From an uncultured Clostridia bacterium (GTDB lineage: Bacteria; Bacillota; Clostridia; Christensenellales; Borkfalkiaceae), in NCBI GenBank assembly GCA_934271245.1, contig CAKQQY010000024.1:1-27916 (forward strand): a stretch of 27,916 bases of DNA. The letters are read 5' to 3'. This document shows positions 6,440 to 27,916 of the stretch, piece by piece (the stretch's first letter is position 1; each line of letters begins with the position of its first letter). The notes beneath the pieces are model-generated. The model saw only the letters and a program-made list of their open reading frames with translations, was not told the origin of the DNA and ran no database searches. Position numbers and translations under genes: made by a program.

Positions 6440-6691
6440 GTGATTTATATTTTAAGAATTCCAATAGAAGAAAAAGATTTAACTCAATTTGCAAGAAATA
6501 AATTCTTAATGGAAAGCTATAAGACCTGTTATATATTTTCATTGAATAATTATTTCTTAGATAAATTTATTGCTTCATATAAAGATTATGCAAATGATTT
6601 AGGATATATTAATAACAAGTATAGCTTAGATCCAACTAAAAGATGGGAATTTAATATTCCTAATAGTTATGCTTAGGAAGTGGAGGACTAA
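6440..6691 (+). CDS. Small accessory protein of CXXX-repeat module 1 (GTG start; 1 TAG read as Gln)
   Basis: MIYILRIPIEEKD... is homologous to the ORF at 14907 (MIKYIPIEHEE...). Lies immediately upstream of the rSAM gene. In-frame TAG at 6674. Confidence 0.5.
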
Positions 6692-6694
6692 ATA

Positions 6695-7957
6695 ATGCTT
6701 AACCCTGAAATGCAGTATAATGATTATATAGCTCATCTATTTCCTGAATATGATGGGCGCGGAATTAAGGAAGTAACATTTTAGCTTACTGATAATTGTA
6801 ATCTATGCTGTTCTTATTGTTATCAAATCCAAAAGGGTCATCATAAAATGCCGTTTGAGGTAGCTAAAAAATTTATAGACTACATATTTGAAGGACGCGA
6901 AGACCCTACTTCAGAATTTTATGAAGGTAATGTATTCGGCTTCATTATTGAGTTTATAGGCGGTGAACCATTGCTTGAAGCACGTCTTATGGAATAGATT
7001 TGTGATTATTTTGAAAGTAAATTGGCTGGAGTGCCTGAAAGTCCTTGGAATTTGTTCCATATTTATTCAATAAGTAGCAATGGAACATTATATAATACTA
7101 AGGCTTGTCAACATTTCTTAAAAAAATATGATGGCCTTATTAGTCTTGGTATTACAGTTGATGGTTGCAAAGAATTACATGATAAATGTAGACTATTTGC
7201 CAATGGTTCTGGGAGTTATGATTTAGCTGTTTCGGCCGCCTTAGATGTAATGAAGCGAATAGGTAATCGTAGCACAAAATTAACATTCAGTCCAGCTAAT
7301 CTTGATTACGTTTTTGAAGGATTTAAAAATATGGCCGAATTAGGTTTTAAAGACCTCTACGGCAATTGTGTTTTTGAAGATGTATGGAATAATAAAAAAG
7401 ATATAATTAAATATTATAATCAATTAAAAATGCTTGTTGATTGGTTGTTATCTTCTGGAAAAATAAATGATGTATATATTAGGATATTTGAACCTTCTGG
7501 ATATAACGCTTATAAGCCAGAAGATGGAGATAGACAATGGTGTGGAACAACAACTAATATGTTTGCTATTGATTATAAAGGTGATATATATAGTTGCTTA
7601 CGTTTTATGGAAAGTTCCTTGGGTAATGATGCCCCACCTCTTATTATAGGTAATGTAGACCGCGGAATAGGCGCATTAAAATCAGAACAAGAAATTATGG
7701 AATTATTTGATAACTATAATAAGAAAAATATATATACTAATAAATGTTTTAATTGTCCTATTGAAAGCGGCTGCTCATGGTGTGCGGCTTGCTCTTATCA
7801 AATGACTGGTAATCTTAAATGTAGAACAATGACTACTTGTGAAATACATAAAGCAGAATACTTGGCTACATTATATTTATATAAACAATTTGATAAAAAT
7901 ATTTGGGCAAAAATGCCAAAAGTAAATTATGAATTTGTAAAAAATATAATCTCTTAG
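6695..7957 (+). CDS. Radical SAM/SPASM peptide maturase, CXXX-repeat target family, paralog 1 (2 in-frame TAG = Gln)
   Basis: CNLCCSYCYQ (CxxxCxxC), GGEPLL, and a C-terminal SPASM Cys cluster (CFNCPIESGCSWCAACSYQ). TAGs at 6782 and 6995 align to Q residues in the paralog at 15180 (ITFQVTEDCNL; LIEQICDYFE). Confidence 0.85.
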
Positions 7958-7992
7958 AAAGAATATAATTCTCTAATAAAGGAGGAATAAAT

Positions 7993-8826
7993 ATGGCTTG
8001 TTATTCTGGCACTCATTCGCATCGTTATGGTACTAATGGTAGTGAAAATAATCCTAACTGCGAGTTTGGTTGTCAAGGTAGTTGTGGTAATGCTTGTTTA
8101 AGCGGATCAGATAATACATCTTGCACAGTTTGTAAAAACGATTGTGAAGCTGGCTGTGGCAATTGTAATACCTTATGTGGCCCTTAGCCCAGTTGCGATA
8201 CACTATGCAGCGGCGGATGCACTGGTGCATGTGAAGCTGGATGTTCAACAGGTTGTTCTGGCGGATGCAGTGGCGATTGTCAAAGTGGATGCTCAGGCTC
8301 TTGTTCTGGTGGCTGTCAAGGGACTTGTATATCTGCTTGTGCTTAGAATTGCGCGGGTGGATGTACTAATAGCTGTGTTGGCACTTGTAATTATGGATGT
8401 TCCAGTGATGAGGTAAATGATTTATATTTAAATCTTCATTTATCACGTATTGCAGAAAGTGATGATATAAATACTATTAAAAAAATTATTTATAGATTAT
8501 TTGAAAATCTTCAAAAAAGCACTATCTCTAATGGTGATGAAAAATATATAAATGAATTTGGAGGAGACGATCCAATAGGCCTTGTAGCTGACTGGGAAGG
8601 CTGGATGGCCGATGGCACAGCTACATTCTCAATGCTGTTGGATAAAACATTTGAAGCTATTATTAATAACTTAAATACTCTTAATAAAGGCCGAGTAGAA
8701 ATTGATCAAAACAAAATGGCACCAATCAAAATTTGGAAAGACTCTATATCTGGTGAACAATTAAATACAGTTGATCGTGATGCGGCGCTTTATTGGATTG
8801 AATGTCTTAAAAAAATATATGAATAG
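7993..8826 (+). CDS. CXXX-repeat (Cys every 4th residue) protein with C-terminal globular domain, module 1 (2 TAG = Gln)
   Basis: Example repeat: CSGGCTGACEAGCSTGCSGGCSGDCQSGCSGSCSGGCQGTC. TAGs at 8185 and 8344. AGGAGG RBS. Starts MAC, as does the paralog. Confidence 0.7.
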
Positions 8827-8845
8827 GTTATGCCAGTAAAATAAT

Positions 8846-8874
8846 TTGATAATCCTCCGATTTTATGATATAAT
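8846..8874 (+). promoter_or_regulatory. Sigma-70-type promoter TTGATA-17-TATAAT
   Basis: Canonical spacing. Lies upstream of the 8902 ORF. Confidence 0.45.
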
Positions 8875-8901
8875 AAAAATAAAAAAAGGAGGATTTTTCA
8901 T

Positions 8902-9342
8902 TTGATTGGAGAACCTATTTTTGATTACAATAAAGAAACTGGTGAAACCAGTTGTATAATTTCAGATGGTTAGAATATTTTTTATGGTATTTCTAAATGC
9001 CATCCAGAAGATAAAGAATTTTAGAGTGAATTCACAGGTTGTGAGATTGCAGAGCGCCGAGCGCGCATTAAAATTTTGCAACACATTAAAAATAATCAAA
9101 TCATTCCGCAAATTCAAGCTTATGAACATTTAATTAGCACTATGTTAAATAGCAAGCAATTAAATCCGCAATCTTATGAATTTAAACGTATTAAGGCCGA
9201 ATATGATAATTTACTTGATGAATATACTAAAATTAAAAATAATATTAAGTATCGTCAAGGTAAATTAAAAGATTACATTAATGATAAAGACAAGATGAAT
9301 AAGTATATTAAATTGCGCCAGGAGAAGAAAAATGATCGTTGA
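8902..9342 (+). CDS. Hypothetical protein (TTG start, 2 TAG = Gln)
   Basis: Continuous 147-codon frame only if TAGs at ~8971 and ~9022 are read through. AGGAGG RBS sits 9 nt upstream of the TTG. Motif SKCHPEDKEF...GCEIAERRA. Confidence 0.4.
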
Positions 9343-9505
9343 TGATTATATAATGGCTTAGATTGCACAAAATGAAAATTATAAGCCTACCTTGACGGAT
9401 TTGGGTATTTCAATTTATAATTCTGATGGAACATTAAAATCTACTAAATAGATTTTAAAAGAATTATCAGAAATATGGACCGATCCAGATAATTTATTTA
9501 CTTAA
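9332..9505 (+). CDS. Small hypothetical protein (2 TAG = Gln)
   Basis: ATGA overlap with the upstream gene. 57 codons. Confidence 0.3.
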
Positions 9506-26237: not shown

Positions 26238-26249
26238 GGAGGAAATTAA

Positions 26250-26531
26250 GTGTATAGAATTATTGATAAACGTGGTTCTGGCAAAACAGGTAGATTATTT
26301 TTAATTGCTAAAGATACTGGAGCTACAATCGTCTGTTCTAATCCTCGTATGATGCAAGAGAAAGCTATATACTATGGTTTTAAAGACTTAAATTTTATGT
26401 CTTATGCTGAATATGTAGAAGCTTATAAAGGACGAGGATACAATCAAAAATTTTTAATTGATGAAATTGAATCATTAGTAAAATGTTTAGGAAATGTAAT
26501 TGGATATTCCCTCTCGGAGGATGAAGAATAA
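26250..26531 (+). CDS. Small P-loop (Walker A GSGKT, Walker B-like LIDEIE) protein; GTG start
   Basis: AAGGAGG RBS. 93 aa. Confidence 0.4.
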   Translation: MYRIIDKRGSGKTGRLFLIAKDTGATIVCSNPRMMQEKAIYYGFKDLNFMSYAEYVEAYKGRGYNQKFLIDEIESLVKCLGNVIGYSLSEDEE

Positions 26532-27178
26532 TGGATATTGTAAGCAATGTAAAGATTTATGATTTAGAAGAAAGCATCATCGCAGCAGGATACCCGATGG
26601 TTACTGATGTAGAAAGCCAGTAGGGTAGAGAATTAGTAGATAATGATTTTAAGCGTTGTAATACTCTTATTAATGCTTGTGTAAAAGATAATTAGGCGCA
26701 TGGTCAATTTTTAACAGGTATTCGAGTTAATTTTGATTTGACTTGCTCTAATAAAATGTGGGTAGAGGCCGAACGCTACAGGTTCTTGGAATTTGTTAGC
26801 AGTTGTAGTACCATGCATCGTATTACCAAGTTTGATTTAGATAAAGCTTATAATAAATATGTTGATGAACGTGTTATTGATATTATGAAAGAAAAAGTCG
26901 ATACTTATAATACTCAACTTGAAATTAAAAAGAACATGATCAACAATGATGCAAGCACGGAATCAATTAAACAGCAAGAAGATTGGCTTAAAGAATTGTA
27001 TCTTGAAATTCTCTATACTAATCCTGCTGGATTTACATTAACTGCACGTATGACTACTAATTATCGTTGTTTAAGAAATATTTATAAACAACGTAAAAAT
27101 CATAGGCTTAAAGAGTGGCAAGATTTTTGCCATTGGATTGAGACACTTCCCTATGCAAAAGAATTATTGATTAATTAA
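26531..27178 (+). CDS. Hypothetical protein, tentatively ThyX-like (flavin-dependent thymidylate synthase fold) (2 TAG = Gln)
   Basis: Weak recalled resemblance to ThyX: HGQFLTGIRVNFDLT vs HETPFEHIVFTFHV, and RYRF...SSCSTMHR vs RHRIASYNELSGRY. Confidence 0.35.
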
Positions 27179-27181
27179 AAT

Positions 27182-27210
27182 TTGAAAATTTTTCTAAAAT
27201 ATGATATAAT
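27182..27210 (+). promoter_or_regulatory. Sigma-70 promoter TTGAAA-17-TATAAT
   Basis: Canonical spacing, upstream of the ORF at 27248. Confidence 0.55.
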
Positions 27211-27247
27211 ATTAATATAAAGAATAAGAAAGAGAGTTATTTTAAAA

Positions 27248-27607
27248 ATGACTAAAAAGCAGGCATTTATTAATTTTGTTAATGATTTAATTGAAAATTG
27301 TAATCATCCCGTAGAAATGAATGAAGATGTTGAATTCTATTGGAATTATCTTAATAATAGTGATGATAAAGAAGTTGCAACTCCATTGTTTACTGATAAT
27401 GGTAAAATTATTCTAACATTCCTCCAAGAGCATACAGAGAGTGACACTTGGAAGTCTAAAGATATGGCCGAAATCCTTGGTATTAGTTCAAGATCTATTT
27501 CAGGTAGTATCCGTAAATTAGTAAATGATGGATATGTTGAAAAGATTGATGATAATCCAGCTATTTATGCTATTACTACTAAGGGTAAAGATATTAAAAT
27601 TGATTAA
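27248..27607 (+). CDS. Winged-helix DNA-binding protein, paralog 3
   Basis: DMAEILGISSRSISGSIRKLVNDGYVEK. Confidence 0.5.
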   Translation: MTKKQAFINFVNDLIENCNHPVEMNEDVEFYWNYLNNSDDKEVATPLFTDNGKIILTFLQEHTESDTWKSKDMAEILGISSRSISGSIRKLVNDGYVEKIDDNPAIYAITTKGKDIKID

Positions 27608-27625
27608 TTAAAGGAGAAAATAATT

Positions 27626-27916
27626 AATGAAATTTGTTAATGAAACAAGAATTGAAGGATATTTATACGAGCATAATCTGGAAATGAGAGAAAGCGGCCC
27701 GAATTCTAAGAATCCTGGCACACCGTTTATTATGGGCACTATTAGTATTGCTACTGATGAAGAGCTTACTAATGTTATTTAGGTCCATTATACCTATGTA
27801 ACTGAAACTACTTCCAAGGGCAAGACAAATGCTACATTTACCACTCTTCGTAAGATTATTGATGGTGAATATGGCACTGTAATGGGCGATGGAATTGAAA
27901 AGTCTTGTCGTATTAG
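27626..27916 (+). CDS. Hypothetical protein, 3'-truncated at window end (1 TAG = Gln)
   Basis: AAAGGAG RBS. TAG at 27781. Confidence 0.4.

What the first reader, a model, noticed from the sequence alone, without database searches (positions are those of the whole stretch)
6440..27916. Amber (TAG) read as glutamine, confined to particular gene classes
Two in-frame TAGs in rSAM paralog 1 (6782, 6995) align exactly to Gln codons in paralog 2 (ITFQVT; IEQICDYF). At least 15 ORFs are continuous only if TAG is read as sense: endolysin, holin, LAGLIDADG, GIY-YIG, both CXXX proteins and several small ORFs. In contrast, ~8 kb of other genes contain zero TAG: MVP, NADAR, phosphatases, Pnk, flotillin, topoisomerase II A/B, RNase H, ligase and rSAM paralog 2. 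One gene (25239..26237) has 12 TAGs, about half of its Gln codons. This fits code-15 phages in which recoding gates late (lysis/structural) expression, here in a phage whose SD-rich signals point to Firmicutes. No suppressor tRNA is visible in this window.
Basis: partly seen in the sequence, partly recalled or inferred. Interest (0 to 1): 0.75.

Follow-up and report, generated by a model that had tools for sequence, protein, structure and literature searches.

The report
Amber codon read as glutamine
This piece of a ~175-kb human-gut phage of Firmicutes reads the stop codon TAG as glutamine, using its own suppressor tRNA encoded just outside the window, while keeping a conserved subset of genes free of TAG; this is a well-supported new example of a phenomenon already known from gut phages.

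Summary
Reading TAG as sense raises plus-strand ORF coverage from 72% to 85%. It joins 17 well-supported genes (19 counting two doubtful ORFs) that carry 44 in-frame TAGs. About 15 kb of other genes carry none.

TAG means glutamine:
- All three TAGs of rSAM paralog 1 align to Gln in paralog 2.
- Strain variants swap TAG with CAA or CAG.
- Codon-level alignments to two relatives favour Gln over Lys by about 25 log10 units.
- The three TAGs of the neighbouring DnaB gene align to Gln in standard-code relatives, one of them in the SQLN motif of solved DnaB structures.

A tRNA with a CUA anticodon and Gln-like acceptor features lies about 7.5 kb upstream of the window in conspecific contigs.

The uneven distribution is real and conserved across about 34 relatives. 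GyrA has 0 TAG among 668 Gln-type codons and ligase about 1%. The RecJ-like gene has 36% and the holin-like gene 31%. It is not a simple split between late genes and the rest, because DnaB, RecJ-like, PIN-PhoH and homing-endonuclease genes also carry TAG.

This is a new member of the known code-15 gut phages.

Side finding: in some conspecific strains a group I intron splits the suppressor tRNA inside its anticodon.

The parts
2..6282 (+). TAG-free block: MVP (partial), hypothetical, NADAR, metallophosphatase, Zn-ribbon ORF, AAA_33 kinase, metallophosphatase 2, flotillin. It holds 0 TAG among 75 Gln-type codons. MVP and flotillin prefer CAG and have GC of about 0.40.
6440..6691 (+). Small ORF with a TAG at 6674, five codons before TAA. 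This could be a true stop or a sense codon. Two strains have GAG here.
6695..7990 (+). Radical SAM/SPASM paralog 1. TAGs at 6782, 6995 and 7955 all align to Gln of paralog 2.
7993..8844 (+). CXXX-repeat protein 1 (PF27846-type rSAM target). TAGs at 8185, 8344 and 8824.
8902..9505 (+). Two small hypothetical genes (8902..9342 and 9332..9505). TAGs at 8971, 9022, 9359 and 9449. Position 9359 is CAA in two strains.
9704..10602 (+). PIN-PhoH ATPase exon 1, with a TAG at 9968.
10603..11903 (+). Group I-type intron that splits PIN-PhoH. It carries a LAGLIDADG endonuclease ORF (10917..11861; TAGs at 11001 and 11460). An intron-less allele exists in L271.
11904..12317 (+). PhoH exon 2 (TAG-free).
12375..12514 (+). 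Endolysin exon 1 (start of the CHAP domain).
12515..12761 (+). 247-nt insert that interrupts the endolysin. It is absent from most strains. The 5' exon ends in T and the insert ends in G, so it is a probable small group I intron, but it has no Rfam match.
12762..13901 (+). Endolysin exon 2 (end of CHAP plus Amidase_2). TAGs at 13179, 13299 and 13500. The homologue columns there are mostly K, Q and K respectively.
13903..14355 (+). Holin-like membrane protein, inferred from position and two hydrophobic segments only. TAGs at 13915, 14023 and 14179.
14410..14907 (+). Hypothetical gene with TAGs at 14482 and 14863. Position 14863 is CAA in two strains.
14907..16493 (+). TAG-free small ORF plus radical SAM paralog 2 (15180..16493). 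They hold 0 TAG among 18 Gln codons.
16496..17161 (+). CXXX-repeat protein 2, with a TAG at 16637.
17612..17848 (+). Small gene with a TAG at 17708, which is Gln in 26 of 26 relatives. A perfect 12/12 sigma-70-type promoter lies at 17578..17606.
18306..24562 (+). TAG-free block: small ORF, RNase H, GyrB/ParE-like, GyrA/ParC-like and ATP-dependent DNA ligase. It holds 0 TAG among 62 Gln codons. The depletion is conserved in about 34 relatives.
24621..25176 (+). Two small genes (24621..24812 and 24910..25176). TAGs at 24672, 24681 and 24964. A perfect promoter lies at 24559..24587.
25239..26237 (+). 332-aa protein with a C-terminal GIY-YIG nuclease domain. It has 11 TAGs, 48% of its Gln-type codons. 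Positions 26016 and 26046 are CAA in six strains.
26531..27178 (+). phrog_6721 protein of unknown function, with TAGs at 26621 and 26693.
27627..27916 (+). Start of a YorF-like gene that runs off the window. The TAG at 27780 is Gln in 24 relatives, TAG in 8 and Thr in 1.

Best explanation
The window belongs to a ~175-kb uncultivated human-gut phage of a Bacillota (Firmicutes) host that uses genetic code 15. TAG is decoded as glutamine by a phage-encoded amber-suppressor tRNA (anticodon CUA). That tRNA sits in a tRNA/ncRNA island about 7.5 kb upstream of the window.

Shown here:
- TAG is a sense codon.
- Gln is the best-fitting amino acid.
- The suppressor tRNA gene exists in conspecific genomes and has a mismatched 1:72 pair plus G73, like tRNA-Gln.
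- TAG use is strongly uneven between genes, and that pattern is conserved across the clade.

Inferred, not shown:
- A host enzyme charges the tRNA with Gln. This would be GlnRS, or GluRS followed by GatCAB in hosts that lack GlnRS.
- The suppressor competes with RF1.
- TAG-free genes are kept translatable in a naive, standard-code cell before the suppressor accumulates. These genes are topoisomerase II, ligase, RNase H and the MVP/NADAR/flotillin block.
- TAG-bearing genes give full-length protein only after the switch. These include the endolysin, the holin-like gene, upstream genes that look like tail fibres by eye (no PHROG match), DnaB, the RecJ-like gene, PIN-PhoH and the homing endonucleases.
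For: Coding density: TAG as sense gives 85% plus-strand coverage against 72% under table 11. The same holds in about 40 related loci, with gains of 10-38 points.

Public gene calls on conspecific contigs already read through TAG, for example the 332-aa GIY-YIG gene and the 431-aa rSAM gene.

Amino-acid identity:
- 3 of 3 TAGs in rSAM-1 align to Gln of rSAM-2. Two of them are CAG or CAA in the distant loci L019 and L020.
- Among strains more than 97% identical, TAG sites vary to CAA (4 sites) and GAG (1 site). One CAG site and one CAT site in the window are TAG in a relative. No site varies to a Lys codon.
- The empirical-substitution likelihood over alignments to L021 and L026 gives log10 L of -62.6 for Gln, -87.4 for Lys and -91.3 for Glu.
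- The three TAGs of the downstream DnaB gene are Gln or TAG in all 33 recoded relatives and Gln in 11 of 12 cells from standard-code relatives. One of them aligns to the Gln of the SQLN/SQLS motif in the four DnaB structures whose alignments were shown.

Suppressor tRNA:
- ARAGORN finds anticodon CTA at L186 3070-3146, L273 3236-3312 and L274 3257-3333.
- Rfam scores the L186 copy as a tRNA at 52 bits.
- L186 is 97.5% identical to window 1-11789.
- The sequence shows U1·C72, G73, a GG-containing D-loop and a 5-nt variable loop.
- The phage tRNA-Gln genes of relatives have a weak A-U or U-A 1:72 pair plus G73.

Gene bias:
- Within the window, permutation p = 5e-5.
- Across about 34 relatives, the TAG share of Gln-type codons is GyrA 0/668, ligase 4/430, GyrB 6/380 and RNase H 2/91. 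It is RecJ-like 36%, holin-like 31%, GIY-YIG protein 26%, endolysin 16%, PIN-PhoH 16% and DnaB 11%.
- Individual TAG positions turn over quickly. Only 6 of 22 window TAG sites are TAG in L021.

All 37 complete ORFs end in TAA or TGA.
Against: - Two of the three endolysin TAGs (13179, 13500) fall in columns that are Lys in about 72% of 120 homologues. Overall Lys is the second most common partner of TAG. TAG sites are therefore less conserved than ordinary Gln sites, and some arose by K-to-Q or E-to-Q replacement.
- The suppressor tRNA was found in conspecific contigs, not on the window's own contig. Its T-loop reads TCCGAGC (C at position 55), which is unusual.
- In two conspecific contigs the tRNA gene is interrupted by an intron.
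- Charging with Gln is inferred, not shown.
- Timing of expression is untested.
- Perfect host-type promoters lie directly upstream of the TAG-bearing genes at 17612 and 24621. DnaB and RecJ-like genes carry TAG. A simple 'late genes only' gate does not fit.
- The clade-wide counts come from related, non-independent genomes.
Confidence: 0.87

Rival explanations
1. TAG is decoded as another amino acid: lysine, glutamate, pyrrolysine, or a class II tRNA identity such as serine.
For: Two endolysin TAGs sit in conserved Lys columns. Lys and Glu are the next most frequent partners of TAG. ARAGORN labels the tRNA 'Pyl'. More distant relatives carry 89-92-nt tRNA(CUA) genes with a long variable arm, next to tRNA-Ser.
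Against: Lys and Glu are worse than Gln by about 25 and 29 log10 likelihood units. No strain-level TAG to AAA/AAG change was seen, but five TAG to CAA/CAG changes were. The DnaB TAG columns are Gln. The 'Pyl' label only reflects the CUA anticodon. By inspection of the sequence this tRNA has a normal GG D-loop, a 5-bp anticodon stem and a 5-nt variable loop, plus U1·C72 and G73 like tRNA-Gln. The long-arm tRNAs belong to other phages, not this one.
Confidence: 0.04
2. The TAG-free state of some genes reflects recent acquisition from standard-code genomes, not selection tied to expression timing.
For: MVP, DUF2828 and flotillin have GC of 0.40-0.42 and use CAG for Gln. The rest of the genome is about 30% GC and uses CAA. 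NAMPT and NAD synthase in L026 show the same bias.
Against: GyrA, GyrB, ligase and RNase H use the phage-typical CAA codon and low GC, yet they stay almost TAG-free in about 34 diverged relatives. Neighbouring genes gain and lose TAGs rapidly over the same distances. The CAG-rich genes are conserved across the clade, so they are not recent arrivals. CAG is one transition away from TAG.
Confidence: 0.2
3. The host itself reads TAG as Gln, so there is no code switch during infection.
For: The host is unknown. Phages of code-25 hosts are known to match their host's code (bioRxiv 10.1101/2021.08.26.457843).
Against: The phage carries its own tRNA(CUA). About half of the genes, including long ones, avoid TAG completely, and this is conserved. 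That paper reports about 90% of genes recoded in phages matched to code-25 hosts. To my knowledge no bacterium is known to read TAG as Gln.
Confidence: 0.04
4. TAG is a genuine stop. The interrupted ORFs are pseudogenes, assembly errors or low-level read-through products.
For: Under table 11 the ORFs are fragmented. One public contig (L008) was called that way.
Against: The reading frame, and similarity to paralogs and homologues, continue across every TAG that was tested. The same TAGs recur in independent assemblies from many samples. One gene has 11 TAGs. An essential helicase motif contains a TAG.
Confidence: 0.01

Closest known systems
TAG-to-Gln (code 15) recoded gut phages: Ivanova et al. 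2014 (from my own knowledge); Borges et al. (bioRxiv 10.1101/2021.08.26.457843: Lak, crAss-like, Garnet, Amethyst, Sapphire, Agate, Topaz); metaproteomic validation in crAss-like phages (PMC9523058)
   Same: In-frame TAG aligns to Gln. The phage encodes a suppressor tRNA(CUA). Only part of the genes are recoded. Lysis genes are recoded and some early genes are kept in standard code. Replication genes are 'variably' recoded. The source is the human gut, with non-westernised samples prominent among the contigs found.
   Different: Membership of any named clade was not tested, because no terminase lies in reach. The size (172-190 kb) and the origin of one relative in a Peruvian sample (SRR1761717) resemble the ~200-kb clades of that paper, but this is only a lead. 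Here the TAG-free set is unusually sharp (GyrA 0/668 across relatives), and DnaB and RecJ-like genes are on the recoded side.
Phass-1 / 'Phassvirus' (PMC10607447): a 136-kb human-gut phage with TAG in 41 ORFs and three suppressor tRNA genes
   Same: Uncultivated gut phage with TAG recoding and suppressor tRNAs. Its ligase is a distant homologue (29% identity).
   Different: Only remote protein similarity, so it is a different lineage and genome size.
crAss-like phages with suppressor tRNAs and many introns (PMC7886860)
   Same: Stop-codon reassignment is combined with a high density of group I introns and homing endonucleases in core genes. Those authors note that suppressor tRNAs often go undetected.
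   Different: Those phages infect Bacteroidetes and are unrelated. An intron inside the suppressor tRNA itself is not mentioned in the passages I searched.
Bacterial tRNA genes with group I introns in the anticodon loop (cyanobacterial tRNA-Leu(UAA), tRNA-fMet; from my own knowledge)
   Same: In L271 and L272 the intron follows a U in the anticodon, ends in G and matches RF00028.
   Different: Here the interrupted gene is an amber suppressor in a phage, and the intron is polymorphic among strains.

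Membership tests
Code-15 (TAG to Gln) recoded phage | Conserved genes are continuous only if TAG is sense, and coding density is higher than under table 11 | tested here: met
   72% rises to 85% coverage, against a 7-point gain on the non-coding strand. Similarity continues across TAGs.
Code-15 (TAG to Gln) recoded phage | TAG positions align best with Gln in homologues | tested here: met
   log10 likelihood is -62.6 for Gln, -87.4 for Lys and -91.3 for Glu. 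DnaB and rSAM positions are Gln. A minority of sites align to Lys or Glu.
Code-15 (TAG to Gln) recoded phage | Phage-encoded suppressor tRNA with a CUA anticodon | tested here: met
   Not in the window. Present about 7.5 kb upstream in conspecific contigs L186, L273 and L274. Intron-split in L271 and L272.
Code-15 (TAG to Gln) recoded phage | TAG is not needed as a terminator | tested here: met
   All 37 complete ORFs end in TAA (28) or TGA (9), and the 19 TAG-free genes never end in TAG. This is weak evidence on its own. The TAG at 6674 could still be a stop.
Code-15 (TAG to Gln) recoded phage | Recoded codon enriched in lysis and structural genes and avoided in early genes | tested here: inconclusive
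   The endolysin, the holin-like gene and two upstream genes that look like tail fibres by eye carry TAG. Topoisomerase, ligase and RNase H avoid it. But DnaB, RecJ-like and PIN-PhoH genes carry TAG. No capsid or terminase genes were within reach, and there are no expression data.
Code-15 (TAG to Gln) recoded phage | Host uses the standard code | not testable with these tools
   The host is unidentified. MAG bin labels (Clostridium, Lachnospiraceae, Bacilli, 'Mollicutes') are not host proof.
Named clade of Borges et al. (for example Sapphire) | Placement in the large-terminase phylogeny with at least 95% support | not tested
   No terminase gene lies in the roughly 58 kb that could be retrieved.
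tRNA-Gln-type amber suppressor | Weak or unpaired 1:72 pair, G73 discriminator, U35 in the anticodon, class I architecture | tested here: met
   The tRNA has U1·C72, G73, CUA, is 77 nt long and has a 5-nt variable loop. tRNA-Trp shares A1-U72 and G73, so sequence alone does not prove the identity.
tRNA-Pyl | Per my own knowledge: 6-bp anticodon stem, 3-nt variable loop, small D-loop without G18G19 | tested here: not met
   The tRNA has a 5-bp anticodon stem, a 5-nt variable loop and an AATTGGTTAGA D-loop.
Group I intron (RF00028), for the insert in the suppressor tRNA of L271/L272 | Match to the covariance model at the gathering score, 5' exon ending in U, intron ending in G | tested here: met
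   50.4 bits against a gathering score of 50, E = 5.8e-12. The junction reads CTCT|TATA...GAAG|AAAA.

The most novel reading that the evidence does not exclude
The code switch may itself be gated by RNA splicing. In part of the natural population (L271, L272) the amber-suppressor tRNA gene is split between U35 and A36 of its anticodon by a 288-nt group I intron. No CUA anticodon exists until the ribozyme excises itself. That would tie the onset of TAG decoding, and hence of lysis, helicase and nuclease synthesis, to intron self-splicing. It would also help explain why suppressor tRNAs go undetected in many recoded phages, since ARAGORN missed these copies. Alternatively, the intron is only a selfish passenger with no effect on timing.
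Probability: 0.2. Interest if true: 0.6.

Novelty: new member of a known kind. Interest (0 to 1): 0.35.

Why it matters
Practical consequences:
- Genes of this widespread gut phage lineage are mis-called under table 11. The lineage has dozens of 100-200-kb contigs in IMG/VR and ENA, many from non-industrialised populations. The endolysin, DnaB, a RecJ-like nuclease and the rSAM/CXXX peptide systems all fragment.
- The standard tRNA finder missed the suppressor tRNA wherever an intron splits it.

Biological value:
- The lineage gives a clean, conserved partition between TAG-free and TAG-using genes in a Firmicutes phage. That partition could be used to test the 'code switch as infection timer' idea.
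- It shows that the recoded side includes core replication enzymes, not only lysis and virion genes.

The phenomenon itself is not new.

Tried and rejected
- Megablast of 25 kb against 50,697 deposited phage genomes found no match. tblastn with the ligase found only relatives of 31% identity or less.
- An exact search for the window end in IMG/VR found no match.
- Rfam at gathering and at E <= 1 on the window found no tRNA, intron or other credible RNA.
- A PDB search with the endolysin hit only the CHAP part, so it said nothing about the TAG columns. The I-TevI alignment of the GIY-YIG domain put TAGs on variable positions (S, R, I, N), which is uninformative.
An exact scan for this tRNA's anticodon and T arms gave 0 hits.
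- tRNA scans of 10 kb downstream of the window and of 43 loci around the ligase gene found nothing. Look-ups with window genes 1904..2176 and 2173..2595 gave no upstream sequence. The upstream region was finally reached through the full-length MVP protein.
- I considered lysine as the meaning of TAG after the endolysin alignment. The likelihood, the strain polymorphisms and the DnaB columns rejected it.
- I considered pyrrolysine because of the ARAGORN label. The tRNA architecture rejected it.
- The 247-nt endolysin insert gave no Rfam match even when searched alone, so its intron class stays unproven.
- PHROGs gave no function for the holin-like gene or for the upstream genes that look like tail fibres by eye.

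Full report
**1. What the window is**

All credible genes lie on the plus strand. GC is about 30%. In order, the genes are:
- a partial major vault protein (MVP), NADAR, two metallophosphatases, an AAA_33 kinase and flotillin;
- two radical-SAM/SPASM enzymes, each followed by a Cys-rich CXXX-repeat protein;
- a PIN-PhoH ATPase split by an intron that carries a LAGLIDADG gene;
- a CHAP/Amidase_2 endolysin and a small membrane protein;
- RNase H, GyrB- and GyrA-like topoisomerase subunits and an ATP-dependent ligase;
- a 332-aa protein ending in a GIY-YIG domain;
- winged-helix proteins and the start of a YorF-like gene.

Exact-protein look-ups place the window in contigs of 172-176 kb from Hadza and other human-gut metagenomes. 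Relatives of 100-200 kb are common in IMG/VR. Nothing close exists among deposited phage genomes. The nearest cultured phages, at 31% ligase identity or less, infect Bacillus, Brevibacillus and Alicyclobacillus. Shine-Dalgarno cores precede 19 of 35 genes, against a 7.7% background. A Bacillota host is therefore likely but unproven.

**2. The observation**

Reading TAG as sense raises plus-strand ORF coverage from 72.2% to 85.0%. TGA as sense gives 77.4%. The non-coding strand gains only 7 points with TAG as sense.

My 38-ORF model has 44 in-frame TAGs in 19 ORFs. Of these, 17 are solid and two small overlapping ORFs are doubtful.
- The gene at 25239..26237 has 11 TAGs, not 12.
- The TAG-free genes add up to about 15 kb, not about 8 kb.
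- The endolysin is also interrupted by a 247-nt insert (12515..12761) that most strains lack.

The public gene calls on most conspecific contigs already read through TAG. One contig (L008) was called under table 11 and is fragmented.

**3. Which amino acid**

Five lines of evidence bear on this.

(a) Paralogs. The three TAGs of rSAM-1 align to Gln in rSAM-2. Two of them are CAG or CAA in distant IMG/VR relatives.

(b) Strain variation. Among assemblies 97-99.9% identical to the window, 38 of 44 TAG sites are unchanged. Four sites vary to CAA, which is a two-base change. One site varies to GAG. In addition, one CAG site and one CAT site in the window are TAG in a relative. None varies to a Lys codon.

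(c) Endolysin homologues gave a warning. Two of its three TAGs fall in columns that are mostly Lys (YTKISPN, DICKRNNI). The third falls in a Gln column (RQASSNYG).

(d) Codon-level likelihood. Because of (c), I built codon-level alignments of all window genes to two related recoded phages, L021 and L026, whose endolysins are 82% and 73% identical to this phage's. I scored each candidate amino acid with the substitution frequencies observed at ordinary codons in the same alignments. The log10 likelihoods are Gln -62.6, Lys -87.4 and Glu -91.3. The two relatives are not independent, but the margin is very large.

(e) DnaB. In about 40 further loci, the three TAGs of the downstream DnaB gene are Gln or TAG in all 33 recoded relatives. 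They are Gln in 11 of 12 cells from four standard-code relatives. One of them is the Gln of the SQLN/SQLS motif in the four DnaB structures whose alignments were shown.

TAG therefore means Gln. The sites that align to Lys or Glu are best read as K-to-Q or E-to-Q replacements at poorly constrained positions. TAG sites are less conserved than CAA/CAG sites: 44% against 58% identity to L021.

**4. The decoding agent**

No tRNA lies in the window, in the 10 kb downstream, or around the ligase in 43 relatives. Using the full-length MVP protein as a handle, I retrieved 10 kb upstream from a conspecific contig, L186, which is 97.5% identical to window 1-11789.

That region holds an RNA-gene island:
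- tRNA-Thr and tRNA-Pro;
- a ROOL RNA (314 bits);
- a tRNA with anticodon CUA at L186 3070-3146, about 7.5 kb before the window start;
- a RAGATH-33 RNA;
- tRNA-Gly.

Two more conspecific contigs, L273 and L274, carry the same tRNA.

The tRNA sequence has U1·C72, G73, a GG D-loop, a 5-bp anticodon stem and a 5-nt variable loop. This is a tRNA-Gln-like acceptor end. The phage tRNA-Gln genes of relatives have A1-U72 or U1-A72 plus G73. It is not the tRNA-Pyl architecture, despite ARAGORN's label. Its T-loop has C at position 55. That is unusual, but it recurs in other tRNAs of these phages.

Charging with Gln by a host enzyme is an inference from the known behaviour of amber suppressors.

**5. 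Distribution among genes**

Within the window, TAG use among Gln-type codons is heterogeneous (permutation p = 5e-5). The pattern is conserved across about 34 recoded relatives.

| Gene | TAG share of Gln-type codons |
|---|---|
| GyrA | 0/668 |
| Ligase | 4/430 |
| GyrB | 6/380 |
| RNase H | 2/91 |
| RecJ-like DHH | 36% |
| Holin-like | 31% |
| GIY-YIG protein | 26% |
| phrog_6721 protein | 26% |
| Endolysin | 16% |
| PIN-PhoH | 16% |
| DnaB | 11% |

Individual TAG positions turn over quickly between relatives. The persistent zeros therefore imply selection against TAG in those genes.

MVP, DUF2828 and flotillin are also TAG-free. They differ in composition (GC about 0.40, CAG-preferring), so a second factor may act there.

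The partition is not a split between lysis or structural genes and the rest:
- In the same genome DnaB has 3 TAGs, the RecJ-like gene 11, and AAA_24, UvrD-like and YorF 1 each.
- Perfect sigma-70-type promoters precede the TAG-bearing small genes at 17612 and 24621.
- Two large upstream genes carry 6 and 5 TAGs. They look like tail fibres by eye but have no PHROG match.

This agrees with the published description that structural and lysis genes are recoded while replication genes are variably so (bioRxiv 10.1101/2021.08.26.457843). Whether the partition reflects timing could not be tested.

**6. Comparison with what is known**

TAG-to-Gln recoding in gut phages, with phage suppressor tRNAs and standard-coded early genes, is established (Ivanova 2014, from memory; Borges et al.; PMC7886860; PMC10607447). 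It has proteomic proof for crAss-like phages (PMC9523058).

This phage meets the defining features that I could test. Clade assignment by terminase could not be done. More distant relatives (L032-L034, L063, and a Paenibacillus prophage L035) use the standard code, so recoding arose within this lineage.

I rate the finding a new member of a known kind.

**7. Side findings**

- In conspecific contigs L271 and L272 the suppressor tRNA is split between U35 and A36 by a 288-nt group I intron (RF00028, 50.4 bits). ARAGORN misses these copies.
- A tRNA-Gln(UUG)-like gene in the same island carries an insert of about 61 nt in its anticodon loop.
- Distant relatives have long-variable-arm tRNA(CUA) genes.
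- The PIN-PhoH intron is window 10603..11903, and an intron-less allele exists in L271.
- The MVP gene sits next to a DUF2828 protein and NADAR, downstream of the ROOL RNA. Phage MVPs were reported in bioRxiv 10.1101/2023.11.10.566534, whose text does not contain the terms 'genetic code', 'stop codon' or 'tRNA'.

Noticed in passing
L271 2761-3125 (also L272); intact copies at L186 3070-3146, L273 3236-3312, L274 3257-3333: In two conspecific contigs the amber-suppressor tRNA gene is split between U35 and A36 of the anticodon by a 288-nt group I intron (Rfam RF00028, 50.4 bits). ARAGORN does not report these copies. The intron is polymorphic among strains.
   Followed up: partly
L186 188-3962 (about 6.7-10.5 kb upstream of the window start): An RNA-gene island holds tRNA-Thr, tRNA-Pro, a weak YrlA/Y-RNA-like hit, a ROOL RNA (314 bits), tRNA(CUA), RAGATH-33 (139 bits) and tRNA-Gly. 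Two TAG-bearing genes that look like tail fibres by eye lie between it and DUF2828-MVP.
   Followed up: partly
L186 1320-1453; L195 6646-6785: Rfam reports tRNA hits of 134-140 nt. The L186 one looks like tRNA-Gln(UUG) with an insert of about 61 nt in the anticodon loop, which is too short for a group I intron. Its nature is unknown.
   Followed up: no
L202 4567-4657, L209 1115-1206, L227 6279-6368, L228 7262-7350, L229 8237-8327: More distant relatives carry 89-92-nt tRNA(CUA) genes with a long variable arm, often right after tRNA-Ser(UGA). The L202 copy shares its acceptor and D-arm with that phage's tRNA-Gln(CUG). Which amino acid these insert is open.
   Followed up: no
window 12515-12761: A 247-nt insert interrupts the CHAP domain of the endolysin. 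It is absent from most strains, identical in L271 and 94% identical in L043. The 5' exon ends in T, the insert ends in G, and GAAGTAATATACAGTCTG resembles a group I core. It has no Rfam match even when searched alone.
   Followed up: partly
window 10603-11903: An intron with a LAGLIDADG ORF splits the PIN-PhoH gene. An intron-less allele (416 aa) is in L271 20440-21690. The core-like AAGATATAGTCAG lies at 11859. Rfam gives no hit.
   Followed up: partly
window 2-1813 and 4894-6282; L186 7974-12469: MVP (822 aa full length), an adjacent DUF2828/DUF7788 protein and flotillin have GC of 0.40-0.42 and use CAG for Gln. The rest of the genome is about 30% GC and uses CAA. NADAR follows MVP, and relative L026 has NAMPT and NAD synthase upstream. 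The MVP search returned more than 5,600 proteins at E <= 1e-5.
   Followed up: partly
window 6695-8844 and 15180-17161: Two radical-SAM/SPASM enzymes (43% identical) are each followed by a Cys-rich CXXX-repeat protein (PF27846-type target). Relative L021 has only one pair. Their function in a phage is unknown.
   Followed up: no
window 17857-18633; L002 3268-3527; L021 15671-16705: Strains L002 and L003 lack window 17857-18633 and instead carry an insert of about 260 nt in gyrB with a group I-like core (GAAGAAATAGTCAG). L021 and L026 have a GIY-YIG-bearing intron at the same gyrB region. Intron content is highly variable in this lineage.
   Followed up: partly
window 17578-17606 and 24559-24587: Two perfect 12/12 TTGACA-17-TATAAT promoters lie directly upstream of small TAG-containing genes. 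Strong terminator hairpins follow MVP (1820-1853), flotillin (6281-6311), PhoH (12316-12343) and 17470-17507.
   Followed up: no
L228 5570-5869: A distant relative encodes a tmRNA (tag peptide ARYQYQMAA) inside its tRNA island.
   Followed up: no
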